From: a virus
IMG/VR virus record: IMGVR_UViG_3300034816_000006
Coordinates: 12,196 to 76,195 of that record
Length of the DNA: 64,000 nucleotides
Direction: 5' to 3' (one strand)
Position numbers and translations under genes: made by a program. The notes beneath the pieces were generated by a model. It saw only the letters and a list, made by a program, of their open reading frames with translations. It was not told the origin of the DNA and ran no database searches. Shown here piece by piece: positions 1,829 through 64,000 of the stretch. The stretch's first letter is position 1. Every line of letters starts with the position of its first letter.

Positions 1829-2061
1829 AAGCTGTGCTGTACGAGATGCTTACGAGCAAGAAGTTCCTGACCGCGGTGGGCGCCGGAATTGTGTGGGTCG
1901 CCGGTCGCTGGGGGTTCGCTATCGACCCGTCGACCCTGGACCACATCTTCGCCGCGCTGCTGGTCTATGTCGGAGCGCAGGGGGTGGCCGACAACGGCAA
2001 GAGTGCAGCGCTGCTGAACGCGAAGGCTGCCAACGACAACGCGACCAAGGCGGCCGCATGA
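1825..2061 (+). CDS. Holin (78 aa, two TM segments)
   Basis: MKAVLYEMLTSKKFLTAVGAGIVWVAG...FAALLVYVGAQGVAD: 'SKKF' followed by 2 TMs, a typical small holin pattern, near the endolysin. Confidence 0.7.
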   Translation: MKAVLYEMLTSKKFLTAVGAGIVWVAGRWGFAIDPSTLDHIFAALLVYVGAQGVADNGKSAALLNAKAANDNATKAAA

Positions 2062-2456
2062 CCCGCCCGCTCCTCATGGCCTGCCTCGTCGCTCTGGCCG
2101 CGACCTACGGCTGCGCCACCTCGCAGCGCGAGACCACGATCAAGGCGACCTTCCTCGGCCTCGATGCGGCACGCGATAGTTTTTTGGCCTACGACCGCTC
2201 GCACGAGATGTCGCTGACCGCGCACTGCGACCCGGCCGTGGAGTCGCGTGATGCCTGCGTGGCCAAGGTGACCACCTCGACCGCGAAGCTGGCCGAGTAT
2301 CAGGCCTCGCGCGCCAAGATCGATCAGCTGTTCACCGCGGCATTCCGGTCGCTGACCGCTGCGCAGATCCTCGATACTGACCAGAGCATCGCGAGCGCGA
2401 TCGCCGCCGCGTCGCAACTGTTCGCGGCCGTCAAGCCGTTCCTTGGAGGCAAGTGA
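2058..2456 (+). CDS. Lipoprotein, possible spanin-like lysis component
   Basis: Signal peptide with lipobox-like LAATYG-C, helical body, coupled to the holin. Confidence 0.6.
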   Translation: MTRPLLMACLVALAATYGCATSQRETTIKATFLGLDAARDSFLAYDRSHEMSLTAHCDPAVESRDACVAKVTTSTAKLAEYQASRAKIDQLFTAAFRSLTAAQILDTDQSIASAIAAASQLFAAVKPFLGGK

Positions 2457-4713: not shown

Positions 4714-7700
4714 CTAGGTGCGGACCGCCGACCACCAGCGCGCAATCCTGGCCCACACGGTGGGGCGCTCGATGGTGGCGACCGGCAGCGGCGCGGTCAG
4801 CGGGTCACCGTTGCAGTCGACCTCGACACCGACCAGCTTGCCGTCGATGTGCACGACATCGCCGCGCTGGTTGACGCTATGCCGACCGCGGTAGATCACG
4901 TCGCCGAACTGGACCATGACCCTGCGATCGTCGTCGCTCATCGCCTCACCTTCCCCGCCGGCGCCAGCATCGCGGCCTTGAGCGCGTCGATGCGAGACTG
5001 CGAGAAGCCGTCGGGGCGGGGCGTGCCGTACTCGGCGCGCAGTCGGTCGTATGTGGCCTGACCTTCGGCGCTGAGCCCGCGCACTGGCTCCGTGGCCGCC
5101 CGCTGATCGGCCTTGAAACGCTCAACCTCGCGCACGGCCAAGCGGATGGCGAGGCTCTCAGGCTTGACGTCGCAGTGGGCGATGGGCGGGATGCGGCGGA
5201 GGATCGCTCCGAATAGACCGAAGATAATGCCACGACCAACACGAGTTCCAAGGCCGCACCGAGCGACGTTGATCTCCGCGTGGATTTCATCGAGAGATAC
5301 CAGCCTGCCCTCGACCCAGTTCTCTGGTTTGTCATGCGGCCCGACACCATACTCCCACCGGACCAGATCGCCCGGAACGAAGCATCTCGCCTCATGCTCT
5401 CGCGCCGCCGCGTCCAGATCCTCGCCCTCGAACGGGACGTTGCAGCGGGCGCAGGTGGTGCGGGTGACTGCGTCATCTTCGTCGTCGCCGTTCAGGTCAA
5501 GTCGATACTCGTCGCTCATTCTGTCTCCTTGCCGGATTGTACACCGTCGGCGAGGGCACGGAGACGGTAGAGCGGAACCTCGTGCTCCTCCACGTCTACC
5601 AATTCCTCGATCAGGTCGCACGCCTCGCGCAATCCGCTCTCGAGCGCGGAGATGCGATTTTCCATCATGTCGTAATCATGCACAGCCTCGGCAGCACCGG
5701 AGCGCGCGAGGTTCGCTGCAGATCGCAGCCGCTCCAAGTCCAGGTCCTGCTGCTCGAGCACGAGCTGCGTCTCGGCGAGATCACGCTCGTTGTTCGCGAG
5801 GCGGTCGACGACGGACTGAAGGCGCGAGACTTCGTTCAGCAGGTCGGCCATCGCTTGCTTGTGGTAGCCGATGGCGGCGTCGCGCAGCTTCGCAATATCG
5901 GCCAGGCGCGCGGGCGAGAGCGGAGCTGCGGTCATGGCTTGGGCTCCAGAATCATGTCGATGCGATCGATGTGGGCGAGATGGTTCCAGTCTTCGTTGAG
6001 GCGATCGTCGAGCTCTCCTCGCCACTTGGTGAGCCCTGACGGCAGCCGCTCGTTCTCCGCCAGCGCCGCCTCGAGCTGGTCGGCGAGGTCCAGATTGTTC
6101 TTGCGGCACCGGATGGTCGCCAGTGCTATGTCGCGACGTGACTGTTTGTCGTCAGCGAGGCATACGTCATGCGGACCGGCAAAGTGCGCCTCGATGCGCG
6201 CGATCGTGGCCGCATCCTCCCTCGCCTTGCTCACCAACCTGGCGCAGAGCGCGGGGTCGAGGGTGGTCATGGGGCCACCTTGGTGAGCGCGCGGTCCAGT
6301 GCCTCGCCGCGTCCGGTCTCGATCTCGTCGCGCGTCATTCCGGCTCGATATCGCAGCGCAGCAGCCGCGATCTCCAGGAGCACGGGCGCGGCGTTGCGGA
6401 GGGCGACAACGCTGGAGATGTTGTCTAGCCAGCCAACATCTGGCAGTGCTTGCTCGATGCGCTGCAGCTCCGCGATGCTGGGGCGGGTCATGGTTTGGCC
6501 GTCCCCGCCACGATCTCGTCTGCGAGCTCCTTGGTCGTGTCGTAGCCGTCTACCTTGTACTTCAGGTAGTCCAGCGCGGCACGAAGACGCTCCACCTCGT
6601 CATCGGCGTCGCACCTCGTGTCGAAGTGGTCCGAGATGACGTGCAGCAAGCGCTGGAGGCAGTCGCTGGCCTTGTCAAGGCGGAACGTGATGCTCGGCGG
6701 GTTGCCGCCATACGAACACGACGCGAATGGGACCTCGAACGTGAACGAGGCCAGCCCGCTCGACTTGAAATCGCCGGTGCCATCGCCGTCCCTGAGCCGG
6801 CGGTATAGCGCGGCGTTGCGTTGGCGCTGCTTGATGGTCGCGTCGCCGCCGATCGCGATGGCCGGGGCGTAGTGCATGTTGTCGGTCTCGTCGCTCATCT
6901 CGGTCCTTTCGTTCGTGCGGTCAGTCGCATCGCGGCTTGCTATCGGTGTACATGTGGCCTCCGATCCCGCAGTCGACCAACGGCCTGCCGGGCGAAGGGT
7001 TTGGACACTGGCGCCATGTCCGGAACGTCCGGACGAATACCGGATCGTCAGCCGGCGGCATGTCGTACGGGTCGCCGCAGTTGGCGCAATACGCGTCGAC
7101 TATGGCGCCGCGATCCTCGTCGCCCGGGTCATGGTTGAGTCGGTCCTTCACGGCACAACCCTCAGCGGATTCTCACACGTCCCATCACCCGCGATCCGCA
7201 CCTGTTCCGCGCGGTCCATGGCGATCTGAACCTCGAGCGCGAGCGGGCATACTCGGCGCTCGCGTAGCTGCTGCAGGCGCGACTCGGCGGCGGTGTCCTG
7301 CGCCTGGATCAGGTAGCCCGCGTAGAGCAGCGCCGGGGACAGGAAGATCGCGAGGTACAGCGCCATCGCGACGATGTCGACGAGGCGAGACGGTGGGCTC
7401 GGTGCCTCTGGCGGCGGGGTGATGACGGAACGGTGGAGGGTCATGGGCGCCTCGTGGTCATGAGAAGTTCGGCGGTTTCTGACGGAGATAGCGTGCCCAT
7501 CATCGAGTGCGGACACATCGCCTCGCGGCAGCTACATACCGGCGGATGCTTCGCCTGGGCACGCGCGATCCGATGCAGATCGCGCGCGAGGTCGGGATCT
7601 CCGGCCGATCGGCTGCAATGGCCTTCGGCTTGCTGTACTTCGCCAAGATGCGTTCCTCAGCCTCTCGAAGTTCGGCGAGGCATGCGACGAGATCGCGGGC

Positions 7701-8218
7701 CTCCTCGGGCTTGTCACACAGGACCGCGACGCCTCGTATCATAATGGTGAACGCCATCTCATCGGTCTCCTTGCTGGTGAATACGAGGGGAAGGCGGACG
7801 CCGACAACCCTCGCAACTTTCGTGATCGTTTCGCTTCTGGTGTGGGGTGCGCGATGTCGCGCATCGCGGATCAAGACTTCCTTCGCTTGAGGATCCCGCG
7901 TTGCTCGCGGAGTTCATCGGCGGCCTCGGCGTACCGCTTGGCCTGCTCCTCGATCGCGCGCGTGTGCTCGCGCAGGCACCACGCCTCGTTGTCCTTCCCA
8001 TCGGCGAACAGCTTGCCGACGGCCGCCTTGAGGGAGAGGACGGCCGCGCCGGCGCCGTCATGCCGGCCGATCGCCGAGGCCAGCGCGTGCGTCTCGCCTA
8101 GACACGTTTCGCAGTGCAGGTAGAAGCCGTGCCGGCATTTCTCGGGCGGGCCTCCTTCGCCGACCTCGGCTACGATCTCGTCGAAGAAGCTAGGGGCGGG
8201 ATGCTTCGCCTTGGTCAC
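4714..8218 (-). CDS. Run of ~10 mostly coupled small early hypothetical genes (4714-4941, 4938-5519, 5516-5935, 5932-6270, 6267-6491, 6488-6898, 6921-7151, 7148-7444 TM, 7500-7757, 7871-8218)
   Basis: ATGA/GTGA overlaps chain most of the minus-strand ORFs; plus-strand ORFs here look like shadows. Confidence 0.6.
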
Positions 8219-8244
8219 GAAGGCACCGCTCCACGCGAGGTGCC

Positions 8245-8445
8245 CCGGGAGACAGCCGGGAGACAGCGGCCATCAGCGTCTGCAACCGGCCGCGACTGTT
8301 CAGATCCTGGGTCGGCTACGCGATGTTCTTGTTCGTCTTGCTGTGTCATGTTCTCGACATCCCTTGATGTACGCATCGTCTGCAACGTTGGCAACGGCAT
8401 ATCACCCTCGACGGGGCCCTGAATTCGGGAGACGGACGGGAGACG
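8245..8445. other. Probable attP: paired integrase arm-type sites
   Basis: CGGGAGAC direct-repeat pairs with 11-bp period at 8246/8257 and 8426/8437, flanking ~160 bp at the 3' end of int. Confidence 0.6.
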
Positions 8446-9511
8446 CTGCCATATCGCTCGGCATCCGGAACTTCACCCGGCCGTAGTCCTTCTCGAAGGT
8501 GTCCGGCCTGAGGTGCGCGTAGGTCCGCTCGGTGATGGTCACGCTCGAGTGCCCAAGGATACGCGAAAGGTCGAAGATATCGCCACCGTCGATCAGCCAC
8601 AGCGACGCGAAGCTGTGGCGCAGGTCGTGGACCCGCATGCGCTCGTCGAGTTCCGCATGCTCGACCGCGCGCTTGAACGGCTTCCATACCGACGGCTGCG
8701 ACAGCGGCCTACCCGGTCGCCCGCCGGGCCACAGCAGCACGTTGCGGCCGCGCTGCAGACGCATCTCGCGAAGCACTGGAAGCAGAGCATCGAGGATCGG
8801 GACCCACCGGAGCTTGCCGGACTTCGTCATTCCGCGGCGCCCTCGGTGTACCGCGATCAGCCGGTGCTCGAGATCGATGTCGTCCCAGTGCAGGTGGAGC
8901 GCCTCGTCGAGGCGCATGCCAGTGCCGACCAGCACGGCGACGATTGTGCGGATGTTCGGCGTGCATTCGGAGAGCAGCCGCGTCACCTGCTCCAGCGACT
9001 GCAGCCATGGAAACACCTTGGCTGGTCGCACGAGCATCTTCACGCGGTGGCACGGGTTGCCGGCGATCCACTGCTGATCGACGAACCATGTGAACGCGCT
9101 GGACAGCGTGCCGACAAGGGCGTTAACGAACGATGCAGACACGGTTGCGCTGATCCTGTCGCGCCAGCGGACCACCTCGAGCTTGCGGATCTTGACGATC
9201 GGCACCGAGCCGAATTCAACCGCGAGATGGTTTCGCACGCGGCTCTCGTACTCGTCCCATGATCGGGATCCGGCTTCGCGTAGCGCCTTGATCCATGCCT
9301 CGGCAGCGACCGAGAACGTGCGCTCGATGTCGACGTCAGACGGCAGTTCGCCGCTCACGATCTTCCGCTGCGTCGTGCGGAAGTCCTCGTCTATCGCGAT
9401 GGCCTCGCGCTTCGATGCGTACGAGCCGACGTAGACCTTCTTGTCGCGACCAGCGCGACGACCATAGACCTGGTAGCGGACGCCTTCGACCCTGCGAACC
9501 GTCTTGATCAT
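8402..9511 (-). CDS. int: Tyrosine integrase
   Basis: Catalytic motifs TGMRLDE, TKSGK, HDLRHSFAS, LGHSS and TYAH. Confidence 0.95.
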   Translation of the reverse strand: MIKTVRRVEGVRYQVYGRRAGRDKKVYVGSYASKREAIAIDEDFRTTQRKIVSGELPSDVDIERTFSVAAEAWIKALREAGSRSWDEYESRVRNHLAVEFGSVPIVKIRKLEVVRWRDRISATVSASFVNALVGTLSSAFTWFVDQQWIAGNPCHRVKMLVRPAKVFPWLQSLEQVTRLLSECTPNIRTIVAVLVGTGMRLDEALHLHWDDIDLEHRLIAVHRGRRGMTKSGKLRWVPILDALLPVLREMRLQRGRNVLLWPGGRPGRPLSQPSVWKPFKRAVEHAELDERMRVHDLRHSFASLWLIDGGDIFDLSRILGHSSVTITERTYAHLRPDTFEKDYGRVKFRMPSDMAASPVRLPNSGPRRG

Positions 9512-9681
9512 GGCGAGAACCTACACGACTCGATCCAGCGATCGAGCTCGGCTTCGTCAAACTTCACCACGCGCGGGCCCAATCGGATGTGCGGTACCCG
9601 CTTGCGGCTCACCATGGCGCGCAGCGTGCCGACCGGAACGGCCAACTTCGCCGCGGCCTGTGTGTAGCTGAGAAGGGTCAC
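9508..9681 (-). CDS. xis: Excisionase-like HTH_17 protein
   Basis: LLSYTQAAAKLAVPVGTLRAMV...HIRLGPRVVKFDEAELDRWI; immediately upstream of int. Confidence 0.8.
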   Translation of the reverse strand: MTLLSYTQAAAKLAVPVGTLRAMVSRKRVPHIRLGPRVVKFDEAELDRWIESCRFSP

Positions 9682-10785
9682 GGCTTCCCCTCCAGCGCCG
9701 CGTCGCAATCCTTCGCGCTCCGGCACTCCCACTCGTCGCCGTATACGTCGCGCTGCATAAGCGTCCGTGCGCGCCGCCGGTTGCAAATGCGGCAGACGGC
9801 GGTCCTGTGCGACCTGGGCTTCATGGTGGACCTTGACGGCTTCACTTCGGCCACCTCAACGCCTCCTTCCCCTTCGCCCATTTCGCGCCGCGCCAACGCC
9901 CGAGTCCAAGCGCCTTGCACGTGTCACACAGCGGGCAGATGTCGCCGAACTCGCACGTGCACTCGCCACCATCCGAGATTGATATCCACAACAAGCGGAC
10001 CAGGGCGCGACGCAGCGCAGCGATCTGCTCGGCGGTTGACATCACGCGCCGGGCGATCGCGGCTCGCCGCTTGTTGTGCACGCGCGACTTGGGCGTGATG
10101 CCGAATGCGAGGGTCGGGTCGGAGGGCTTCACCTGCGCGGCCTCCGGTTCGTGGCGCGTGACCCGGCCGGCAGCACGGTGCGGACCGCGCCATCCAGCGA
10201 CACCACGAGCAAGCGTCCGCTCTGCGTGCGGTAGATCGGATCCTCGCCGGGCGGTTGCTCGTACAGTACGGCACCGCGCATCTCTCGGAACAGGTCACTG
10301 CGCGCGGCCTCCCATGACCAGCCCTGGCGGTGGCGCTCGATGTACCGCTCGATCGCGTGGTTCGTCAGCGAGGTCGGCTTGCTCACGCCATCCCCCAGCC
10401 TTCGCTATCCGCGCCCACTAGCTCCAGCAGAAACCCGTCCGCGACGTGACCACGACCATGCGCCATGTGGAACTCGGCGATCCAGCAGACGATCGCCCAG
10501 CGTGGAGTGGGCGGTCGGCGCGGTGGTTCGATGCGGATGGCTGCCATGGTCACGACTCTCCTCGCGGTCCGACCGGGTCCGTAGCGAGGCCAGACTCCAC
10601 GCGAATGATCCACTCCTTGACCACTCCGACCATGTCGCCCTGGTTGCAGTTCGAGATGTACGCGCAGTTGCCGCGATCGCCGAACTCGAACACGAAAACG
10701 GTCAGGCCGACACGCGGGCCGAGCTTGTGAATCGCATAACCGATCAGTTCGCGTGACAGCCGTTCCAGTACTCGTCGAGAGATCA
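9678..10785 (-). CDS. Cluster of small hypothetical early genes (e.g. 9842-10132, 10129-10386, 10550-10785)
   Basis: Coupled minus-strand ORFs, several with CxxC motifs. Confidence 0.5.
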
Positions 10786-11256
10786 TGTCGACCACTCCTC
10801 GTGCTCCAGCAGTTGCCCCTCGCGTCCCACCACGTACAGCGCGCGCAACTTCCCGGCCCGCAGCGCATTGAGTGCCATGCGGATCGTGGCCCACGTCCCG
10901 CCGCGCGGCTGTGGCTCGTTCTCGAACGGTGCCGCGATCATGATGTGCGAGATGGCGACGATGGCGGCGTTGCGCTTCATGTGGGACGCGCGGTCGTGCC
11001 GGAAGTCGCCGAAGCATCCAGCGGACAGATCACCAAGCGGTCCAGGATGAATCGCGATGTCAGCCGCATCCCGCAGGGCGACACGCACGATGCGGTGGAA
11101 TTCTGCATCTGCCCCGACGCAGTCACCGTGATGCGCCAGGACGCGACGCAGATCGCTCGGCTTGTTGGTCATCACCAGGAAGGAGACCATATTTGACTGG
11201 TCGGCCGACATGCCATGTCGAGTTCCCGTGAATCCCATATGGAACGGTTCGGCCAT
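10783..11256 (-). CDS. SLOG superfamily (YspA/DprA-like) nucleotide-binding protein
   Basis: GFTGTR, HHGDCVGAD, KRNAAIV and GGTWATIRMA motifs. Confidence 0.75.
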   Translation of the reverse strand: MAEPFHMGFTGTRHGMSADQSNMVSFLVMTNKPSDLRRVLAHHGDCVGADAEFHRIVRVALRDAADIAIHPGPLGDLSAGCFGDFRHDRASHMKRNAAIVAISHIMIAAPFENEPQPRGGTWATIRMALNALRAGKLRALYVVGREGQLLEHEEWST

Positions 11257-11420
11257 CTACGCTCTCCACGGCGACTTGTATTTTGCGAAAAGTTCGTGCA
11301 TCTCGAGCTCTGACATCACGAGCACAGGAGAGTGGCCAACGAGAATTTCTAGCGACCTCAGCCACAACAAGCAGAGATGAAAATCGAACCTCGACGGCAC
11401 GATGGGATGCGTTCTCGTGT

Positions 11421-11783
11421 TCACGTCTTCCTCCTGTACTTCGCTTGCTCGCCCTTCGCCCTCGTCCGCTCGACGCGCCCCGTCTCGATCAGTCGCCGCA
11501 ACGCGCGGTGCAGCGTGCGCTCGCGGATCCCAGGAACCAATGCCCTGACCTCGGCGCCGGTCATCGGCTCGGTTAGCCGCTCGCACGCGGCATCGCAGAC
11601 TCGCGCGAACAGCTTCGCCTTGTGGCTGCCCATGCCGCGCGGAACGGTTCCCGGTCGCAGGCGACGCCAATGCCTGTAGATGACTGGCATCGACACGTCG
11701 AAGCGGTGCGCGACGTCAGCAACGGACAGGTTCGGGTCGGCATCGAGCATGGCGATCGCGGAAGCGGCGAGCTGGTCGGTCAT
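11421..11783 (-). CDS. Double HTH/winged-helix DNA-binding protein
   Basis: LSVADVAHRFDVSMPVIYRHW and MTGAEV...ERTLHRALRRLIETGRVER. Confidence 0.65.
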   Translation of the reverse strand: MTDQLAASAIAMLDADPNLSVADVAHRFDVSMPVIYRHWRRLRPGTVPRGMGSHKAKLFARVCDAACERLTEPMTGAEVRALVPGIRERTLHRALRRLIETGRVERTRAKGEQAKYRRKT

Positions 11784-13098: not shown

Positions 13099-13237
13099 TG
13101 GAGTCCGCCCGGCTCGAACGGGCATCACGCCTCGCGGCGTACGTTCTAGCAGCCGTCGCCACGCGTGCGGTGCTGTTGTCTCGAACCGTCGGAGCTGCAG
13201 GCATCCGACGAGCACTGTCCAATTGTGCTAGGACCCC
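13099..13237 (-). ncRNA. tRNA-like RNA (139 nt) with Ala identity, remodelled anticodon arm and large insert
   Basis: Acceptor GGGGTCC/GGACTCC-A; D arm GCAC-AATTGGACA-GTGC; T arm GCCCG-TTCGAGC-CGGGC; fills the intergenic gap between two CDSs. Confidence 0.75.
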
Positions 13238-16272: not shown

Positions 16273-16311
16273 TGCGCTGTCGCCGAGTCGAACGGCGGTT
16301 ACCCTCAGCGC
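16273..16311 (-). ncRNA. tRNA mini-helix-like element (acceptor stem plus T arm only)
   Basis: GCGCTG-a-gggtaac-CGCCG-TTCGACT-CGGCG-a-CAGCGC-A upstream of the SSB gene. Confidence 0.4.
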
Positions 16312-18295: not shown

Positions 18296-18478
18296 TCAGC
18301 AGATCAGTTGTGATGTGTCGCAGTCGCGACACGTGCAGGTACCGAATACACAAGTGATGCAGGTCAGCGGTTCGGCGACCGACGGCTTGGCGCCGCCGAC
18401 GACGACGCGGAACTCGGGTCCGTCGAGCATGCGGATGGTCTCGGCGTTGAGCCAGAGCTTGGTCTTGTGGCGCTTCAT
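18296..18478 (-). CDS. Lanthipeptide-like RiPP precursor peptide 1 (60 aa, double-Gly leader)
   Basis: MKRHKTKLWLNAETIRMLDGPEFRVVVGG|AKPSVAEPLTCITCVFGTCTCRDCDTSQLIC; AGGAG RBS upstream. Confidence 0.7.
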   Translation of the reverse strand: MKRHKTKLWLNAETIRMLDGPEFRVVVGGAKPSVAEPLTCITCVFGTCTCRDCDTSQLIC

Positions 18479-18488
18479 CTGGAGACTC

Positions 18489-18827
18489 CTAGGTAGACCC
18501 GCAGTGAACTTCGTCAACCACCACGCTGCCATCATCGGCCGTGTGATAGCGGACGTGGCAGTACAACGTCGCGTGGTGCGATCCGAATGAGACCGACACC
18601 TCGCACAGCATGCCGCCTGCCGCGTCGCCGCACGCGACGCGATCTACGGAATCAGGATGGTACTCCGCGCGCACATCGGCGACCGACGCGTTGCTCGAGG
18701 CCGCAATCGGGTCGCCATCGCCGCCGCATGATGGAAAGCACGTCTCGGCTTGTGCAGTCGAGTCGACCTTGGGCTCCGTCACGCCGCATGCAGTCATCAG
18801 AACAATCATCGCAACAATCTTCTTCAT
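18489..18827 (-). CDS. Cys-rich lipoprotein
   Basis: MKKIVAMIVLMTA-C lipobox; six further Cys residues. Confidence 0.75.
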   Translation of the reverse strand: MKKIVAMIVLMTACGVTEPKVDSTAQAETCFPSCGGDGDPIAASSNASVADVRAEYHPDSVDRVACGDAAGGMLCEVSVSFGSHHATLYCHVRYHTADDGSVVVDEVHCGST

Positions 18828-26497: not shown

Positions 26498-27060
26498 CCG
26501 CCTATAGCTGCATCGTAGCCGACCCGCCATGGGCGCCGCGCGACAAGCTGCCCGGCAAGACTCGCGGCGCGGCCAAGCAGTACGACGTGATGCGGACCAG
26601 CGACATCATGTGCTTTCTCGTCGACCGCAAGATCAGCGTCGCCGACAACGCGATCTTGTTCCTCTGGCGCCTTGCCTCCATGCAGCAAGACGCGCTCGAC
26701 GTCGTCAATGCGTGGGGGTTCGAGGTCAAGAGCGAGGTCGTGTGGCGCAAGCTGACCAAGCATGGCCGGCCGCACTTCGGCATGGGCCGCTATGTCCGCA
26801 ACGGGCACGAGGTCTGCCTGATCGCAGCCCGCGGCCGCGCGACCTCGCTGATCACGAGCCACTCGGTGCGGTCGGTGTTCGATGCCGTGGCGCCGAGCAA
26901 CTCCAAGGGGCGGGCGATCCATAGCCAGAAGCCAGAGGAGTTCTGGACCGAGATCGTCGAGCCGCTGACCACCGGATACGGGATCGAACTGTTCGCACGG
27001 CGTCGCCGGTTTGGCTGGGATGCCATCGGCGACCAACTGCCAGCGCTCGAGGCCGCATGA
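26494..27060 (+). CDS. MT-A70 family N6-adenine methyltransferase
   Basis: IVADPPW, AILFLW, WGF, HSQKP and IELFAR motifs. Confidence 0.9.
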   Translation: MTAYSCIVADPPWAPRDKLPGKTRGAAKQYDVMRTSDIMCFLVDRKISVADNAILFLWRLASMQQDALDVVNAWGFEVKSEVVWRKLTKHGRPHFGMGRYVRNGHEVCLIAARGRATSLITSHSVRSVFDAVAPSNSKGRAIHSQKPEEFWTEIVEPLTTGYGIELFARRRRFGWDAIGDQLPALEAA

Positions 27061-27307
27061 GTACCCTCGATCGCACACACGCCAGCATCCTGCTCAACCC
27101 GGACACCGCGTCGCTCAAGCGCATCGCGTGGGCATTCGGCTGCGCCAAGAAGGGCAGCGACGAGGAGCGACAACTCGAGGCATTGCTGCGCGAGAAGCTG
27201 GCCAAGGAGGCCGCATGACCCACACATCAATCGTCGTCATCACGATCGTCCTGGCGATTTCCGCACTGCTGCTGTTCGGCCCGACTCCACCCCCGAAAGG
27301 ACTGACC

Positions 27308-28396
27308 TTGGACATCCGAATCCCACGCGCCGACCTGGCCCGCGGCCTGCGCCTCGCCTCGTCGGTGGCCGCGAAGAAACCGACGCTGCCAATCCTGGCC
27401 GACGTGCTGCTGCGCGCGAGCAAGGAACTCAGCATTGCAGCGACCGACCTTGCCGTCTCGTTGACCGCCGAGATGGCATGCGTCGTCACCAAACCAGGAT
27501 CGATCGCGCTCAACGCCGACGATCTGCGCCGGTTCGTGGCGTCAGCGAGCGGCGACGAGGTCACGATCAAGGCGGATGGCGCGTGGGCCGACGTCCGCTG
27601 CGGCAAGGCGAAGTACCGGATCGCCGGGCACCAGGCACAGGACTTCCCGAAGATCCCGGAACCGGCGAAGGGCTGCGAGTGGGTCGAGACCGACGCGGAC
27701 GAGCTCTGCGATTTGCTCTCGCGTGCCAGCTACGCGGTATCGCAAGACGAGTCACGGCAGGCGCTGTGCGGCGTGATGCTGGACTACGACGGCGAGACGC
27801 TCACCGTGCTGAGCGCTGACAGCCCGCGCGCGGTCCTGATCTCGCGGAAAATCCCGTTCCCGGCGCTGCCGCGGCGCATCTCGCTATGCGTCCGTGGCGC
27901 GACCGAGATCTCCAGGCTTCTCGAGGACGCGGGCAAGTGCCGCGTCGCGGTCGACGGCAAGCGCATGCACACAACCGTCGATGGTGAGACGATCAGCGCC
28001 GGGCTGCTCGACTTCGAGTGCCCAGCATGGGAGCGGCACTTGCCGAAGACAGGACTCGCGAGCGCGACCATGGACCGCGATCGCCTGCTCGAAGCGTTGA
28101 AGCGCGTTGCCTCGTTGGCCAGCGATTATCACGGCGTCGGCATGCGTTCGACGCCGACCGGGCTGTCGCTCACCGTCAAGGACAAGGACGGCGAAGAGAT
28201 GAGCGACGAGATCGAGTGCGAGATCAAGGGCGAGATCCTGATCGGTGCGCACCCGAAGCACCTGATCGACACGCTGACTCGGATGGTCGGCGAGCCGATC
28301 ACGATGCGCACGATCGGCGCGACTGACCCGATCGTTTTCGTAGACCACGGCGACGCTGGATACACCGGCGTCGTCATGCCGATGAGGATGGACTGA
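27308..28396 (+). CDS. dnaN: DNA polymerase III beta sliding clamp (TTG start; in-frame upstream ATG at 27215 adds a TM helix)
   Basis: KPTLPILADVLL, AATDL, DFPKIP, YAVSQDESRQALCGV and VVMPMR motifs. Confidence 0.9.
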   Translation: MDIRIPRADLARGLRLASSVAAKKPTLPILADVLLRASKELSIAATDLAVSLTAEMACVVTKPGSIALNADDLRRFVASASGDEVTIKADGAWADVRCGKAKYRIAGHQAQDFPKIPEPAKGCEWVETDADELCDLLSRASYAVSQDESRQALCGVMLDYDGETLTVLSADSPRAVLISRKIPFPALPRRISLCVRGATEISRLLEDAGKCRVAVDGKRMHTTVDGETISAGLLDFECPAWERHLPKTGLASATMDRDRLLEALKRVASLASDYHGVGMRSTPTGLSLTVKDKDGEEMSDEIECEIKGEILIGAHPKHLIDTLTRMVGEPITMRTIGATDPIVFVDHGDAGYTGVVMPMRMD

Positions 28397-37231: not shown

Positions 37232-37393
37232 ATGCAACGCCGCAAGATCGCGCTTCGCCCCGAGACCATCCGCCACCTGACCGACCTCGGCGCTGTCGTC
37301 GGTGGGCGGCCCACGAGTTGGCCGTACTGCCTGGGCGCGGAAGCGGTTCAGACCACGCAGACGATCAAGTGCCCGACGGCGGCGTGCGGGTGA
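37232..37393 (+). CDS. Lanthipeptide-like RiPP precursor peptide 2 (53 aa; not in ORF track)
   Basis: MQRRKIALRPETIRHLTDLGAVVGG|RPTSWPYCLGAEAVQTTQTIKCPTAACG; same leader family as 18296..18478. Confidence 0.7.
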   Translation: MQRRKIALRPETIRHLTDLGAVVGGRPTSWPYCLGAEAVQTTQTIKCPTAACG

Positions 37394-37538
37394 CTGTTCG
37401 CGAGCTTGGCACCGATGGCCACCTACACGAGACGCCGGTTGCGCCGGCGCTGCAGCTGGTCAGCGTCCCGGTCGTCGTCGATCTACCGCGTCCGTGGCTG
37501 CTCGCACGAGCGGTTCGCTGGATCAAGCGCTGGTGGTT

Positions 37539-37820
37539 ATGCGCCTGATCTCCCTGCTCCTGCTCGCGCTCTCCTGCCTCGTCCGCCCGCATGCCGCGCG
37601 ATGCCCAGCCGGTCGCGACCTCCGCACCGGGATCCGCCGCGATGGCAGGTTCGAGTGCTGGTCAGCGCCGCGCGGATCAGTGGTCTACGACGGCACGTTC
37701 GGTCACCCAGATCGCAGCGTGCAGCGGGACGATGCCGTGGAGGCGAGGATCGTGTGCACGGGTGGGAGCGTGCCGATCGTGGTGGATGCGGTGACGGTGG
37801 GCTGTCAGATGAGGCACTAG
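37539..37820 (+). CDS. Small exported Cys-containing protein
   Basis: MRLISLLLLALS-C signal/lipobox plus four Cys. Confidence 0.6.
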   Translation: MRLISLLLLALSCLVRPHAARCPAGRDLRTGIRRDGRFECWSAPRGSVVYDGTFGHPDRSVQRDDAVEARIVCTGGSVPIVVDAVTVGCQMRH

Positions 37821-45226: not shown

Positions 45227-45756
45227 TGAGCGCCGACGGCCGCGGCAAGAAGGCCGCCATCCGCCCGCGCCGCGCCAACGGAACGCTCGCCCCGGACGAT
45301 GCTTCACCCGAGGAACTCGCCGCACCTGACGATCGACCGTGGCAGTTCAAGAAGGGCGTGAGCGGCAACCCGGGGGGAAAGCCTAAGCTGCCCAAGATCC
45401 TGCGCGACCTGATCGGCGAGCTCACGAACAGCGGCGCCGACCTCGTGACCTGGATGAACAACGTCCGCACTGGCGTCGAGGACGGCATGAAAGACGACGC
45501 GCGCGTGCGCCTGGCCGCCGGCGAGTGGATGTGCGACCACTTCTTCGGCAAGGCCAAGCATACTGTTGCGCTGACCGATGGCGTGCCGGTCGAACCCTCG
45601 CCGCCTGTTCCGCTCGATGCGCTACTGCAGGTTCTCGACGACAAGGACCGCTCTGACCTCGAACGAATCCTGGTCAACTTCGAGATGGCGAAGCGCGACG
45701 GGCGTCTTGCGCTACCCGAGCCCGCACCGGACGTCGAGGACGCCGAAGTGCAGTGA
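45226..45756 (+). CDS. terS: Terminase small subunit (DUF5681-type)
   Basis: QFKKGVSGNPGGKPK motif; directly precedes terL. Confidence 0.75.
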   Translation: MSADGRGKKAAIRPRRANGTLAPDDASPEELAAPDDRPWQFKKGVSGNPGGKPKLPKILRDLIGELTNSGADLVTWMNNVRTGVEDGMKDDARVRLAAGEWMCDHFFGKAKHTVALTDGVPVEPSPPVPLDALLQVLDDKDRSDLERILVNFEMAKRDGRLALPEPAPDVEDAEVQ

Positions 45757-47543
45757 TGCTCCCCGCCGCGCGCATGCTCCTGACCGTCGTGCTGTGGCTA
45801 CTGGCCGCCGCGGCTCGCGTTCCACTCGATCCGCTGCCGGCTGCTCAGGCTGCGATCGCCGGCGCGACTGTGCCGCAGGAGCTTCTGATCCTGCTCGGTC
45901 ACAGCCGCGAGGCGCGCATGCGGCTGGTCAAACAGCGGTGCGAGGCGTGCTTCCTGGACTTCGTCGAGTTGATGTGGCCGGTCGTGGACCCAGGCCAGCC
46001 GTTCGTGCGTGGCAAGGTGCAGGAAGCGATCGCACTCCATCTCGAGGCAGTGCACTATGGCAAGATCAAGAATCTGCTGGCGCTGGTGCCGCCCGGCAGC
46101 ACGAAGACGTACCTGACGAATGTTTTCCTTCCAGCCTGGGAATGGGGGCCGCGGAGCCGCCCTGACCTGCGCTACATGTCGTGGTCCTACTCGCCGGACC
46201 TGACCCAGAAGGCGAATGAGGACTGTCGCAAAATCATCAAGCATCACCTGTACCAACGCTTCTGGGGCGATCGCTTCCAGCTGGAGAAAGATGCCGACGC
46301 CAAGTCCTACTACGCCAACAGCAAGGGCGGATGGCGTCGCTCGAGTTCGGTGCGCGGTGCGGCGACTGGGTTCCGCGCGGACCGCCTGATCTGGGATGAC
46401 CCGCACAACGTCAAGGAGGCCGATCGCGAGGCCGAGTTGATCGAGGCGACGCGCTGGTTCGCGCGCACGCTGCCGACTCGCGTTCGGAACATGAGCGGCG
46501 AGGTCAAGGTGCGCGTCCCGTTCTGGGTCCGCGATTGCCACGGCGACCTGCCCGACGATCCCGACGACCCGCGCCCGGTGACGGCATCGGCGACGATCGG
46601 CATCATGCAGCGCGTGCACCTGCACGACTGCGCTGGTCTCGTGCTGCGGAACCCCGCGCTCGGTTACGAGATCCTGCTCATCGAGATGCGCTACAAGGGT
46701 GACGCACACCCGGCTCGCAAGCTGCCGACGTGGCCCGGTTCGTCGATCGGCTACCACGACTGGCGCACGATAGTCGGCGATCTCGCTGACCCGGTTCGCT
46801 TCCCCGAGGCTGAGGTCTCCAAGCTCGAGGCGCAGCTCTCGCTCACTGGCGGCACCGACGCGATCGCGGCCCAGCTCGACCAATGGCCCATGCAGGAGGG
46901 CGGCGCATTGTTCAGTGGCGAGCAGATGCTTGTTGACGGCCTTCCCGTCGAGCCTGCCATGGTTCCGTCCGGCCCCGATCGCCGTGGCTGGGACTTCGCT
47001 GGCAGCACGGCGAAGAAGGCTGACCAGACCGCAGACGCGCGCGTGCGCCGCGGTGGCGACAAGGTGTTCTACCTGATGGACCACGACGCGATCCGGGGCG
47101 GGCCCGGCGCAGTGGACGACCATGTCCGCGCTAAGCACGTCAACGATCCGCGCGACGTGCACTGGTCGATCCCGCGCGACCCCGGCAGCGCTGGCATCCA
47201 CTTCGCGGCCTACGTGATCCGAGAGCTTACGCCCGGTCGGTACGTGGCCGACACGCCAGAGACCGGCAGCAAGGTCACACGCGCCAAGCCGGTCGCCGGT
47301 CAGTGCGCGATCAACAACTTCAAGATCGTGCGTCACCCGAACTGGGAACGCGCCCGTGATCAGCTCGTGGACTTCCCGTATGGCGACCACGACGACATCG
47401 TTGACGCGATCAGCCGGGCGTTCAGCGCGCATGTCGATCTGCCCGCGGTGGCCGAAGATCACGGCGGCTACTCCGGTACCGCTGACGAGCCGCAACCCGT
47501 GGTCTCGACGAGCGAATCGCCCCTAAATGATTGGTGCGCGTAG
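45753..47543 (+). CDS. terL: Terminase large subunit
   Basis: Walker A VPPGSTKT, Walker B LIWDDPHN, nuclease motifs GWDFA and HDDIVDA. Confidence 0.92.
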   Translation: MMLPAARMLLTVVLWLLAAAARVPLDPLPAAQAAIAGATVPQELLILLGHSREARMRLVKQRCEACFLDFVELMWPVVDPGQPFVRGKVQEAIALHLEAVHYGKIKNLLALVPPGSTKTYLTNVFLPAWEWGPRSRPDLRYMSWSYSPDLTQKANEDCRKIIKHHLYQRFWGDRFQLEKDADAKSYYANSKGGWRRSSSVRGAATGFRADRLIWDDPHNVKEADREAELIEATRWFARTLPTRVRNMSGEVKVRVPFWVRDCHGDLPDDPDDPRPVTASATIGIMQRVHLHDCAGLVLRNPALGYEILLIEMRYKGDAHPARKLPTWPGSSIGYHDWRTIVGDLADPVRFPEAEVSKLEAQLSLTGGTDAIAAQLDQWPMQEGGALFSGEQMLVDGLPVEPAMVPSGPDRRGWDFAGSTAKKADQTADARVRRGGDKVFYLMDHDAIRGGPGAVDDHVRAKHVNDPRDVHWSIPRDPGSAGIHFAAYVIRELTPGRYVADTPETGSKVTRAKPVAGQCAINNFKIVRHPNWERARDQLVDFPYGDHDDIVDAISRAFSAHVDLPAVAEDHGGYSGTADEPQPVVSTSESPLNDWCA

Positions 47544-62891: not shown

Positions 62892-63271
62892 CCTGGGACA
62901 GGGCCAACGCGGCGAAGCTGTCCGACCTGCGGCGCCGACGCGAGACGCTGGCCGGTCCTGCTCTGGTGCAGAATCAGCGACTCACCGACAGCCTGCTCGC
63001 CACCGAGCCGCCGCGCGACTACGCGGTGAACCAAGTCCTGCACTGCTGGGCCGACATGAGCACGGAGCGTGCGATCGGCATGGCTGCCGGTCCGGTACCA
63101 TGGCACGCGATCCGCGACTGGTGTGCGTTCCATTTCGGCGACGACCGCGATGCGGCGCAGCTGATGATCACCGTGATCCGCAAGCTGGACGACGACCGGG
63201 CGCGTGCTCAGGCGGCCGAGATGACGCAGCGCCAAGCGCTCGGGCCCGGGGCGGCCAGGGGTAGAACATGA
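62867..63271 (+). CDS. Tail assembly chaperone -1 frameshift extension (G-T)
   Basis: Slippery G GGA AAA at 62867-62873; -1 frame open to 63271, containing ERAIGMAAGPVPWHAIRDWC. Confidence 0.8.
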   Translation, partial: GKRAAAWLTWDRANAAKLSDLRRRRETLAGPALVQNQRLTDSLLATEPPRDYAVNQVLHCWADMSTERAIGMAAGPVPWHAIRDWCAFHFGDDRDAAQLMITVIRKLDDDRARAQAAEMTQRQALGPGAARGRT

Positions 63272-64000
63272 GCCTCGACATCCAGGTCAGGATCGACACC
63301 AGTACCGTCGGACCCGAGCCCACCAAGGTCGCTGCGGACCTCGACAAGGTCACCGACGCCGAGGCTGCGGCTGCGGACGGCGCGAAGAAGCTTGCGGGCG
63401 GCCTGACCGAGCTCGGCGAAGCGTTCGGCGTCAGCAGTAAGGCAAGTTCCGCGGCTGGCGACAGCACCGAGAAGTTGACCGGCCTGACCGGGCGGCAGCT
63501 CAAGATCCTGCAGGACCTCCAGGCGCCGGCGAAGGAGTGGGGCGAGCAGCTCAAGGCACTCAAGGGCCTGACGGACATCGGCGCGATCTCGACGCAGCAG
63601 TACGAGCAGTTGCTGATCAAGTTGCAGCAGACGACCGGCCAGACTTCGAGCATCGAGGCGCAGGCCGCACTCGCGCTGGAGCGTCAGGCAGCCGTGCTCG
63701 AGCGCATCCGCGGGCCGATGCAGCAGTACGAGCAGGACGTCGCCGCGCTCGACGCGCTTATGCACAAGGGCACGCTGACCGCGATCGAGTACGAGAACGA
63801 GTTCCAGCGGCTCGCGAAGCAGTACGGCACGATGCATGGGCCGGTTGCTCCGGGACCTGCCCTGCCGAAGCCGGAAGCCGAGACCGACGGTGGCGTCGGG
63901 GCGCTTGCTGGGGGGCTCGGTCAGGCCGGGGTCGTCCTTGCCGGAGGGGCGCTTGGGGCCGCTGCCATTGGTCTCGGTCAACATGTCTCTGGCCTCATCG
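63268..64000 (+). CDS. Tape measure protein (3'-truncated)
   Basis: ATG 63268 (MSLDIQVRIDT...) overlaps the G-T stop; Ala/Gln-rich helical sequence open to the window end. Confidence 0.8.
   Translation, partial: MSLDIQVRIDTSTVGPEPTKVAADLDKVTDAEAAAADGAKKLAGGLTELGEAFGVSSKASSAAGDSTEKLTGLTGRQLKILQDLQAPAKEWGEQLKALKGLTDIGAISTQQYEQLLIKLQQTTGQTSSIEAQAALALERQAAVLERIRGPMQQYEQDVAALDALMHKGTLTAIEYENEFQRLAKQYGTMHGPVAPGPALPKPEAETDGGVGALAGGLGQAGVVLAGGALGAAAIGLGQHVSGLI

What the first reader, a model, noticed from the sequence alone, without database searches (positions are those of the whole stretch)
18296..18478. Phage-borne orphan lanthipeptide-like precursor 1
The 60-aa ORF has its own AGGAG RBS. Its leader KTKLWLNAETIRML...VVVGG is followed by a core with 6 Cys and 6 Ser/Thr (AKPSVAEPLTCITCVFGTCTCRDCDTSQLIC). 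A KLxLxxETIxxL leader ending in double Gly is the pattern recalled for lanthipeptide precursor families of Myxococcota/Bacteroidota/Acidobacteria, which are cleaved and exported by C39-peptidase ABC transporters. No LanB/C, LanM, LanKC, radical-SAM enzyme or transporter is present in this 64 kb. Inference: the phage supplies substrates to the host's RiPP machinery to make its own modified peptide (signal, antimicrobial or exclusion factor), or to jam that pathway. It lies directly downstream of a Cys-rich lipoprotein in the early operon.
Basis: partly seen in the sequence, partly recalled or inferred. Interest (0 to 1): 0.85.

Follow-up and report, generated by a model that had tools for sequence, protein, structure and literature searches.

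The report
Phage-borne orphan lanthipeptide-type precursor gene
A soil phage carries a real 60-codon gene, and a second one like it, for lanthipeptide-type antibiotic precursor peptides, yet has no enzyme to modify or export them, so it probably depends on its host's machinery.

Summary
The ORF at 18296-18478 (minus) is a real gene. A second, otherwise unrelated phage-like contig (L003) carries the same gene. Similarity starts at the ATG and ends at the stop codon, with 21 synonymous against 7 non-synonymous codon changes (dN/dS 0.06; core 0.016).

The leader is a divergent member of the class I lanthipeptide "L1a" leader family (NCBIfam NF038153). The peptide does not reach that model itself. 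However, a profile of the phage peptides finds 82 small peptides among 1.8 billion proteins, and 61 of the 83 aligned peptides match NF038153. A profile built only from 80 bacterial precursors picks out exactly this gene and its sister gene (37232-37393) among 1,595 six-frame segments.

The family is concentrated in soil Acidobacteriota. Five such genomes each hold 20-30 such leaders but only 2-4 LanB genes. In the two complete chromosomes no leader lies within 20 kb of a LanB. The 76-kb phage record has no LanB, LanC-like, C39 peptidase or radical-SAM domain.

Not shown: the host, expression, modification of the peptide, or what the product does.

The scan has noted similar orphan precursors in other phages before (unchecked notes). 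I found no paper describing this in the searched library.

The parts
18296..18478 (-). Precursor peptide 1 gene (60 codons plus stop)
   Evidence: ORF and translation. Orthologue on L003:7358-7540 with dN/dS 0.063. Reciprocal HMM hit of 38.2 bits, E 1e-10.
18392..18478 (-). Leader, residues 1-29: K-L-x-L-N-x-E-T-I-R-x-L ... V-V-G-G
   Evidence: Aligns to the L1a-type leaders of 80 bacterial precursors (hhalign probability 98.7%, E 4.5e-16). 6 of the 7 residue changes against L003 fall here.
18299..18391 (-). Core, residues 30-60: 6 Cys, 7 Ser/Thr
   Evidence: 12 synonymous changes against 1 non-synonymous change (Thr49 to Ser) compared with L003; dN/dS 0.016. Core identical in P0002.
18486..18490 (-). 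AGGAG ribosome-binding site, 7-nt spacer to the ATG
   Evidence: Read from the sequence. It overlaps the stop codon of the upstream gene.
18489..18827 (-). Upstream neighbour: 112-aa Cys-rich lipoprotein. Context only; not shown to belong functionally.
   Evidence: Signal peptide plus lipobox. No Pfam, PHROG or NCBIfam family. No homologue on L003.
37232..37393 (+). Sister gene: precursor peptide 2 (53 aa). Same leader type, unrelated core with 3 Cys and 6 Ser/Thr.
   Evidence: Motif scan. Homologue P0007 on L003:2072-2242 at 67% identity including the core. dN/dS 0.41. Reciprocal HMM hit of 23.1 bits, E 5e-6.

Best explanation
The gene encodes a precursor peptide (LanA-type) of the class I lanthipeptide kind. 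It has a double-glycine 'L1a-like' leader followed by a Cys/Thr-rich core. A temperate soil phage carries it together with a second precursor that has the same leader type, and the phage has no modifying enzyme or exporter. The likely course after translation in the host is as follows. The leader docks on a host LanB dehydratase, core Ser/Thr residues are dehydrated, and a LanC closes thioether rings with the six Cys. A host C39-peptidase ABC transporter then cuts after Gly-Gly and exports the product. The phage would thereby add its own products to a host system that already serves many unlinked precursor genes. Shown: the gene is real and under strong purifying selection, it belongs to this leader superfamily, the phage lacks the enzymes, and bacterial genomes with this leader family keep their precursors far from LanB. 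Inferred: the host lineage (probably Acidobacteriota), the modification and export, and the role of the product (antimicrobial or signal).
For: 1. Real gene. An orthologue on the unrelated contig L003 shows 21 synonymous against 7 non-synonymous codon changes, dN/dS 0.063. Homology is bounded by the start and stop codons. P0002 is a third copy with an identical core and a different upstream part.
2. Family. A profile of the phage peptides finds 82 proteins at E<=1e-3 among 1.84 billion. Nearly all are 45-90 aa and match from residue 1. 61 of the 83 aligned peptides (81 hits plus the window's two) match NF038153 lant_leader_L1a, best E 2e-13.
3. Reciprocal test. An HMM of 80 bacterial genome-encoded precursors hits only the two peptide genes in each phage contig (38.2, 33.8, 30.5 and 23.1 bits; the next hit scores 8 bits) among 1,595 six-frame segments. 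hhalign gives probability 98.7%.
4. Linkage in bacteria. Bacterial family members sit next to LanB and C39-ABC genes in L004, L007 and L044.
5. Dispersed precursors. Five Acidobacteriota genomes have 2-4 LanB each, 8-16 LanC-like domains and 20-30 L1a leaders. In two complete chromosomes 0 of 29 and 0 of 24 leaders lie within 20 kb of a LanB. Acting in trans is therefore normal in this lineage.
6. Orphan status. The phage record has no LanB, LanC-like, C39 or radical-SAM domain.
7. Core conservation. The core is more conserved than the leader, and the single core change is Thr to Ser, both of which can be dehydrated.
8. Predicted docking of P0001 on residues 1-800 of the L044 LanB gave weak support only: score 0.42, best of 3 controls 0.00. 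That mark was reached by 58 of 80 solved complexes and 2 of 110 mismatched pairs, but a score of 0.60 or under was seen in only 7 of those 80 and in both mismatches that passed. The runs agree in at least 31% of contacts, and the partner's pLDDT is at least 35. My own alignments were used. A like complex (NisB with the NisA leader) is solved, so the pass may reflect likeness rather than binding.
Against: P0001 and P0003 do not themselves reach NF038153, either by hmmscan at E<=10 or in the six-frame search of the phage record. The host is not identified. No relative of the phage's large terminase subunit (TerL) was found in 401 sampled genomes of the class of G003 at E<=1e-20. No orthologue of either peptide was found there. 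Because most bacterial precursors are unlinked to any LanB, the enzyme that acts on them is itself inferred. 24 of the 83 family peptides also match the rSAM-RiPP leader model TIGR04149. There are no data on expression or on the product. The gene sits inside a tightly packed early-type operon with no promoter or terminator of its own detected. That fits expression during lytic growth rather than classic lysogenic conversion.
Confidence: 0.6

Rival explanations
1. It is an unmodified double-glycine-leader peptide (class II bacteriocin-like or pheromone-like). A host C39-peptidase ABC transporter exports and cleaves it, and its six Cys form three disulfides. No LanB or LanC is involved.
For: The leader fits the general double-glycine consensus: hydrophobic at -4, -7, -12 and -15, Glu at -8, and G-G (the consensus is from my own knowledge of the Havarstein and Dirix descriptions). 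Peptide 1 has an even number of Cys. Most bacterial relatives are not next to a LanB.
Against: The specific leader motif (K-L-x-L-N-x-E-T-L/I-R-x-L) is that of NF038153, which NCBI names class I lanthipeptide. Members do occur beside LanB. Peptide 2 has 3 Cys, an odd number, together with 6 Ser/Thr.
Confidence: 0.15
2. It is a decoy. The phage peptide occupies the leader-binding site of the host's LanB or exporter and so blocks production of a host lanthipeptide, for example an anti-phage one.
For: Class I lanthipeptide clusters with anti-phage activity ('lanthiphages') exist in Actinobacteria (bioRxiv 10.1101/2024.06.26.600839). The gene lies in an early-type operon. The phage encodes substrates only.
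Against: The core is far more constrained than the leader (dN/dS 0.016 against 0.113). This is the opposite of what a leader-only decoy predicts. Anti-phage lanthipeptides are so far reported only from Actinobacteria, according to the same paper. No such defence is known in the lineages that hold this leader family.
Confidence: 0.12
3. It is a substrate of another RiPP enzyme class that uses the same leader style, such as a radical-SAM/SPASM maturase (TIGR04149-type or ranthipeptide-like) or a class II LanM.
For: 24 of the 83 family peptides also match TIGR04149 at E<=0.01. The Acidobacteriota genomes hold many long LanC-domain proteins of LanM size. A published RiPP-mining study notes that Cys-rich precursors of this kind are classified ambiguously between rSAM-modified peptides and lanthipeptides (PMC11118758).
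Against: NF038153 is the dominant match (61 members against 24). The only maturases found beside family members here are LanB-type. No recurrent rSAM neighbour turned up among the ten most recurrent neighbour families of the 80 loci that were annotated.
Confidence: 0.08
4. It is a cytoplasmic Cys-rich mini-protein, for example metal-binding, that merely resembles a leader-core peptide. Alternatively it is a passively captured host gene with no role for the phage.
For: No expression or export data exist. Six Cys in 31 residues could bind metal.
Against: Leader homology is significant in both directions. Both peptide genes are retained in two otherwise unrelated phage contigs under purifying selection.
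Confidence: 0.05

Closest known systems
Class I lanthipeptide precursors with L1a-type double-glycine leaders (NCBIfam NF038153 lant_leader_L1a; pinensin-type LanA of Bacteroidota and relatives)
   Same: A leader of about 29 residues with K-L-x-L-x-x-E-T-L/I-x-x-L and a G-G end, followed by a Cys- and Ser/Thr-rich core. Profile-level homology is shown.
   Different: It does not reach the family model's own cut-off. It is encoded on a phage with no LanB, LanC or LanT. Its closest copies are on phage-like contigs, not in bacterial genomes.
Prochlorosins (ProcA precursors with one promiscuous ProcM in marine picocyanobacteria)
   Same: Many precursor genes are scattered far from the single or few synthetase genes and act in trans. 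They combine a conserved leader with hypervariable cores. The Acidobacteriota genomes here show the same layout: 20-30 leaders against 2-4 LanB.
   Different: Prochlorosins are class II (LanM) with Nif11-type leaders, and they are chromosomal. Here the leader is class I-type and two of the precursors ride on phages.
Sublancin cluster of Bacillus subtilis prophage SP-beta, and other prophage-borne bacteriocin clusters (bioRxiv 10.1101/2020.10.01.322628)
   Same: A temperate phage carries a gene for a ribosomal peptide natural product that could arm the lysogen.
   Different: SP-beta carries the whole cluster: precursor, modifying enzymes, transporter and immunity. This phage carries precursors only.
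Lanthiphages: anti-phage class I lanthipeptide clusters of Actinobacteria (bioRxiv 10.1101/2024.06.26.600839)
   Same: Class I lanthipeptide chemistry linked to phage-host conflict. Some clusters lie on prophages or plasmids.
   Different: Those are complete clusters that defend the cell. They are restricted to Actinobacteria and have a different core motif. Here only substrates are present, on the phage side.

Membership tests
NCBIfam NF038153 lant_leader_L1a (class I lanthipeptide precursor) | Score at or above the model's curated cut-off (22 bits) | tested here: not met
   hmmscan of P0001 and P0003 at E<=10 and E<=1 gave no hit. The six-frame family search of the whole phage record gave no hit at E<=10.
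NCBIfam NF038153 lant_leader_L1a (class I lanthipeptide precursor) | Homology to family members at profile level | tested here: met
   61 of the 83 aligned peptides (81 profile hits plus the window's two) match NF038153. An HMM of 80 bacterial members hits P0001 at 38.2 bits, E 1e-10. hhalign gives 98.7%.
NCBIfam NF038153 lant_leader_L1a (class I lanthipeptide precursor) | Leader ending in Gly-Gly followed by a Cys plus Ser/Thr-rich core | tested here: met
   V-V-G-G at residues 26-29; the core has 6 Cys and 7 Ser/Thr.
Class I lanthipeptide biosynthetic system (LanA/LanB/LanC/LanT) | LanB dehydratase and LanC cyclase encoded with the precursor | tested here: not met
   No PF04738 or PF05147 match at E<=1 in the 76-kb record. 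Among bacterial relatives only 4 of 80 loci have a LanB within 10 kb.
Class I lanthipeptide biosynthetic system (LanA/LanB/LanC/LanT) | Dehydrated Ser/Thr and (methyl)lanthionine rings in the product | not testable with these tools
   This needs mass spectrometry of the peptide made together with a LanB/LanC pair.
Double-glycine-leader peptides exported by C39-peptidase ABC transporters | G-G at -2/-1 with hydrophobic residues at -4, -7, -12 and -15 and an acidic residue at -8 | tested here: met
   Peptide 1 has V(-4), F(-7), E(-8), L(-12) and I(-15). The consensus itself comes from established knowledge and was not re-derived here.
Double-glycine-leader peptides exported by C39-peptidase ABC transporters | Cognate C39-peptidase ABC transporter encoded nearby | tested here: not met
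   No PF03412 match at E<=1 in the record. tblastn with the L004 transporter found nothing in the phage at 1e-8.
TIGR04149 GG-leader rSAM-modified RiPP precursors | Match to the model and a radical-SAM maturase | tested here: not met
   No match for P0001 or P0003. No PF04055 match in the record. 24 of the 83 relatives do cross-match the model.

The most novel reading that the evidence does not exclude
The two precursor genes form a mobile 'substrate-only' pair that moves between unrelated temperate phages. It lets a phage write its own products into a promiscuous host lanthipeptide pathway that already serves dozens of scattered precursors. The strongly conserved core would then be a phage-specific secreted molecule made with host enzymes: a weapon against competitors of the infected cell, an exclusion factor, or a phage-to-phage signal.
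Probability: 0.35. Interest if true: 0.85.

Novelty: new variant of a known kind. Interest (0 to 1): 0.65.

Why it matters
Phages are known to carry whole bacteriocin clusters. I found no description of phages carrying only the substrate peptides of a RiPP pathway in the searched library. If the host enzymes accept these peptides, viruses can change what a bacterial natural-product pathway makes without carrying any enzyme. Genome mining keyed on enzymes would miss this entirely.

The work also shows that soil Acidobacteriota with genomes of 7-9 Mb keep 20-30 class I-type precursors scattered far from 2-4 LanB genes. This is a prochlorosin-like one-to-many layout in a different phylum and lanthipeptide class, and it is what makes a phage-borne substrate plausible.

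The pair is directly testable by co-expression with a LanB/LanC pair followed by mass spectrometry.

Tried and rejected
- **Direct family scans** of P0001 and P0003 (Pfam, NCBIfam, PHROGs) gave nothing. PF28317 is not in the local Pfam copy.
- **Word-based protein search** gave only P0002.
- **Viral-contig scans** found no further phage copies: with P0001, with P0007, and with the family pattern L-x-L-N-R-E-T-L-R.
- **First genome-contig scan** with A1 used a poor core pattern and found nothing. Alignment A5 was too diverse to give a pattern.
The 1,497-bp contig of P0002 and the contexts of the metagenomic hits could therefore not be read.
- **Host search.** TerL was not found at E<=1e-20 in 401 sampled genomes of the class of G003. 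No orthologue of either peptide was found there. ARAGORN finds no tRNA in the window that could mark an attachment site.
- **Sequencing runs.** Only the probable source sample, a rhizosphere metagenome, holds the stretch. No RNA holder is listed.
- **Neighbours.** Those of both peptide genes, and the candidate lysis genes, have no PHROG or Pfam family.
- **Promoters and terminators.** No sigma-70-like promoter or intrinsic terminator lies near either gene.
- **Precursor-plus-lipoprotein module.** Rejected as a conserved unit, because L003 has no homologue of either neighbouring lipoprotein beside its peptide genes.
- **ESM Atlas.** Look-alikes (0.87-0.89, including class I lanthipeptide leader clusters) served only as a lead.
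- **Structure prediction** of the peptide alone was not attempted, because a RiPP precursor is not expected to fold.

Full report
**What is there.** The window is bases 12196-76195 of a 76,195-bp IMG/VR virus record judged 97% complete. The only sequencing run listed as holding it is a rhizosphere metagenome, probably its source. The record is a tailed temperate phage. It encodes a large terminase (TerL, 45753-47543; best cultured-phage hits about 35% identity) and a tyrosine integrase (8402-9511). It also encodes a RecT-like protein and a PD-(D/E)XK nuclease, a DnaN clamp, a helicase and a primase-polymerase/VapE protein. The first 12 kb of the record continue the tail genes, so there are no host flanks.

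The finding lies on the minus strand: ATG at 18478, stop at 18296-18298, 60 codons. AGGAG sits 7 nt before the ATG and overlaps the stop codon of the upstream gene. That gene encodes a 112-aa lipoprotein with 7 Cys.

**Is it a real gene?** Composition cannot decide, because the antisense frame shares the same third positions (GC3 0.83 in both). Comparison with another contig does decide. A JGI metagenome contig of 18,970 bp (L003, of which 12,239 bp are held) was fetched through a relative of the sister peptide. It also carries this gene, at L003:7358-7540.

- Between the two copies there are 21 synonymous and 7 non-synonymous codon changes.
- 23 of the 32 base changes are at codon position 3.
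- dN/dS is 0.063 overall, 0.113 in the leader and 0.016 in the core. The core has 12 silent changes and one Thr-to-Ser change.
- The antisense frames differ at 12 to 26 residues.
- Similarity begins four bases before the ATG and ends at the stop codon.

This fixes both the strand and the start codon. A third copy, P0002 from an ENA contig of 1,497 bp, has an identical core, three leader changes and an unrelated upstream part.

L003 is otherwise unrelated to the phage. An all-against-all six-frame comparison finds only the two peptide genes and one 28%-identical lipoprotein. L003 looks like another temperate phage: it has a GH25 lysozyme with a peptidoglycan-binding domain, an integrase, and the end of a cytosine-methylase-like gene.

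**The sister gene.** A motif scan found a second small ORF with the same leader type at 37232-37393 (+). It encodes 53 aa with an unrelated core of 3 Cys and 6 Ser/Thr. Its L003 counterpart (P0007) is 67% identical, including two core motifs, with dN/dS 0.41. Here too the flanks are unrelated beyond the start and stop codons. Two unrelated phage genomes therefore share exactly this pair of genes. The genes lie 19 kb apart on opposite strands in one genome and 5 kb apart on the same strand in the other.

**What family is it?** Neither peptide matches any Pfam, NCBIfam or PHROG model directly. The six-frame search of the record with NF038153 is also empty. A profile of the three phage-type sequences (A1) was searched against 1.84 billion representative proteins.

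- It gave 82 hits at E<=1e-3. Nearly all are 45-90 aa, are matched from residue 1, and have the pattern M-K-K-x-x-K-K-L-x-L-N-R-E-T-L-R-x-L ... V-x-G-G followed by Cys/Thr-rich cores.
- Of the 83 aligned peptides (81 of those hits plus the window's own two), 61 match NCBIfam NF038153 (lant_leader_L1a, 'class I lanthipeptide'; best E 2e-13). 24 match the rSAM-RiPP leader model TIGR04149, and 10 match NF038158.
- As a reciprocal test I built an HMM only from 80 precursors encoded in bacterial genomes (below). I searched all 1,595 six-frame segments of the phage record and L003 with filters off. The only hits are the four peptide genes (38.2, 33.8, 30.5 and 23.1 bits; E from 1e-10 to 5e-6). The next segment scores 8 bits.
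- hhalign of the two profiles gives probability 98.7%, E 4.5e-16.

The peptides are therefore divergent members of the L1a-leader superfamily, but not members by the curated cut-off.

**Where the family lives, and with what.** A scan of one genome per species with the pattern K-L-x-L-N-R-E-T-L-R gave 124 confirmed relatives. Of the best 80 loci, 78 are from Acidobacteriota MAGs (Thermoanaerobaculia, Holophagales), often with several loci per MAG. One is Actinomycetota and one is Haliangium.

Only four of the 80 loci have a LanB within 10 kb (L004, L007, L044, L080). Two of these also have a C39-peptidase ABC transporter. No neighbour family recurs in more than 8 loci.

Five of the Acidobacteriota genomes (7.1-8.8 Mb) each hold:

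- 2-4 LanB genes, with E as low as 1e-176;
- 8-16 LanC-like domains, some standing beside a LanB and many in proteins of LanM size;
- 20-30 NF038153 leader matches, most above the cut-off.

In the two complete chromosomes none of the 29 and 24 leaders lies within 20 kb of a LanB. The median distances are 1.1 and 0.7 Mb. In this lineage, then, precursors normally sit apart from the enzymes, as in the prochlorosin systems of cyanobacteria.

The A1 profile finds matches in 12 of 301 sampled Acidobacteriota genomes (best 39.5 bits). It finds matches in only 5 of 301 sampled Myxococcota genomes, all near 20 bits.

Claims about L080/G680 (the Actinomycetota MAG with a LanB and three tandem precursors) rest on genomes flagged as unpublished. 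So does one weak match in G545, which is counted in the tally.

**Orphan status.** The whole 76-kb record has no match at E<=1 to the LanB N-domain, the LanC-like domain (which also covers the cyclase domains of LanM and LanKC/LanL), the C39 peptidase or the radical-SAM domain. The control genomes responded as expected for the last two. The held part of L003 shows none of these either.

**How it most likely works.** The best-supported reading is that the phage provides substrates only. Host LanB and LanC would dehydrate and cyclise the core, and a host C39-ABC transporter would cut after G-G and export the product. Three observations favour a functional product over a leader decoy:

- the core is under much tighter constraint than the leader;
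- the single core change keeps a residue that can be dehydrated;
- both genes are kept in two unrelated phages.

A predicted complex of the peptide with the first 800 residues of the L044 LanB gave only weak support (score 0.42 against 0.00 for the best of three controls; full caveats are in the For line). It may merely reflect likeness to the solved NisB-leader complex.

The gene sits in a tightly packed leftward operon together with recombination genes. No promoter or terminator of its own was detected. This suggests expression during lytic development or induction rather than from the resting prophage. That timing is an inference.

The host is not identified. No TerL relative and no peptide orthologue was found in about 400 sampled genomes of the class of G003. 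Acidobacteriota is proposed as the host only because the leader family is concentrated there.

**What is known.** Prophage-borne bacteriocin clusters are known, but as complete clusters; sublancin on SP-beta is an example (bioRxiv 10.1101/2020.10.01.322628). Class I lanthipeptide clusters with anti-phage action exist in Actinobacteria (bioRxiv 10.1101/2024.06.26.600839). A large RiPP-phage mining study removed viral contigs before analysis (PMC11118758). My searches of the held library found no report of phages carrying lanthipeptide precursors alone.

Earlier notes of this scan describe comparable orphan precursors in other phage genomes. I did not check those notes. They suggest the phenomenon recurs, but they are not independent evidence.

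**Limits.** There are no expression data. Sampling of genomes was partial (1,429 genomes searched).

Noticed in passing
L003:1-12239 (JGI contig Ga0134122_10001148): This is a second temperate-phage-like contig with a GH25 endolysin (8150-9529), an integrase (10635-11597) and a methylase fragment (1-222). With the window's phage it shares only the two precursor genes (7358-7540 and 2072-2242) and one weak lipoprotein match. The pair behaves like mobile single-gene cassettes.
   Followed up: partly
G001-G005 (genomes of loci L006, L008, L028, L060, L015): Soil Acidobacteriota genomes of 7-9 Mb hold 20-30 class I L1a-type precursor leaders each, but only 2-4 LanB genes. The precursors lie a median 0.7-1.1 Mb from the nearest LanB. 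This is a one-to-many, prochlorosin-like layout in class I systems.
   Followed up: partly
P0004 (132 aa) and P0040 (168 aa), hits: Each of these two metagenomic proteins contains two tandem leader-plus-core units in one reading frame. They may be multi-core or fused precursors of the same leader family.
   Followed up: no
window 37390-37820: A GTG overlapping the stop codon of peptide 2 opens a roughly 52-codon frame. Its own stop overlaps the start of a 92-aa protein with a signal peptide (37542-37820). This may be a translationally coupled three-gene cassette. Coding status was not tested, and no homologues occur on L003.
   Followed up: no
window 1893-2456 (+) and L003:2519-3055 (+): These lipoprotein-like ORFs are 28% identical (E 1e-7). 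They are the only other similarity between the two phage contigs. On L003 the ORF follows a small membrane protein just downstream of peptide 2. It may be a spanin or lysis accessory protein. No PHROG match was found.
   Followed up: partly
window 27011-28396 (+): The phage encodes a full-length DNA polymerase III beta clamp (TIGR00663, 155 bits) with an N-terminal extension of about 100 residues.
   Followed up: no
window 1-64000: ARAGORN finds no tRNA or tmRNA gene in the window. This bears on other first-stage notes that propose tRNA-like elements at 13099-13237 and 16273-16311.
   Followed up: no
window 63268-64000 and L002:2-2893: An ORF runs off the end of the record, and a 963-aa ORF runs in from its start. 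This is consistent with a tail gene, possibly the tape measure, split by linearisation of a circular or permuted genome.
   Followed up: no
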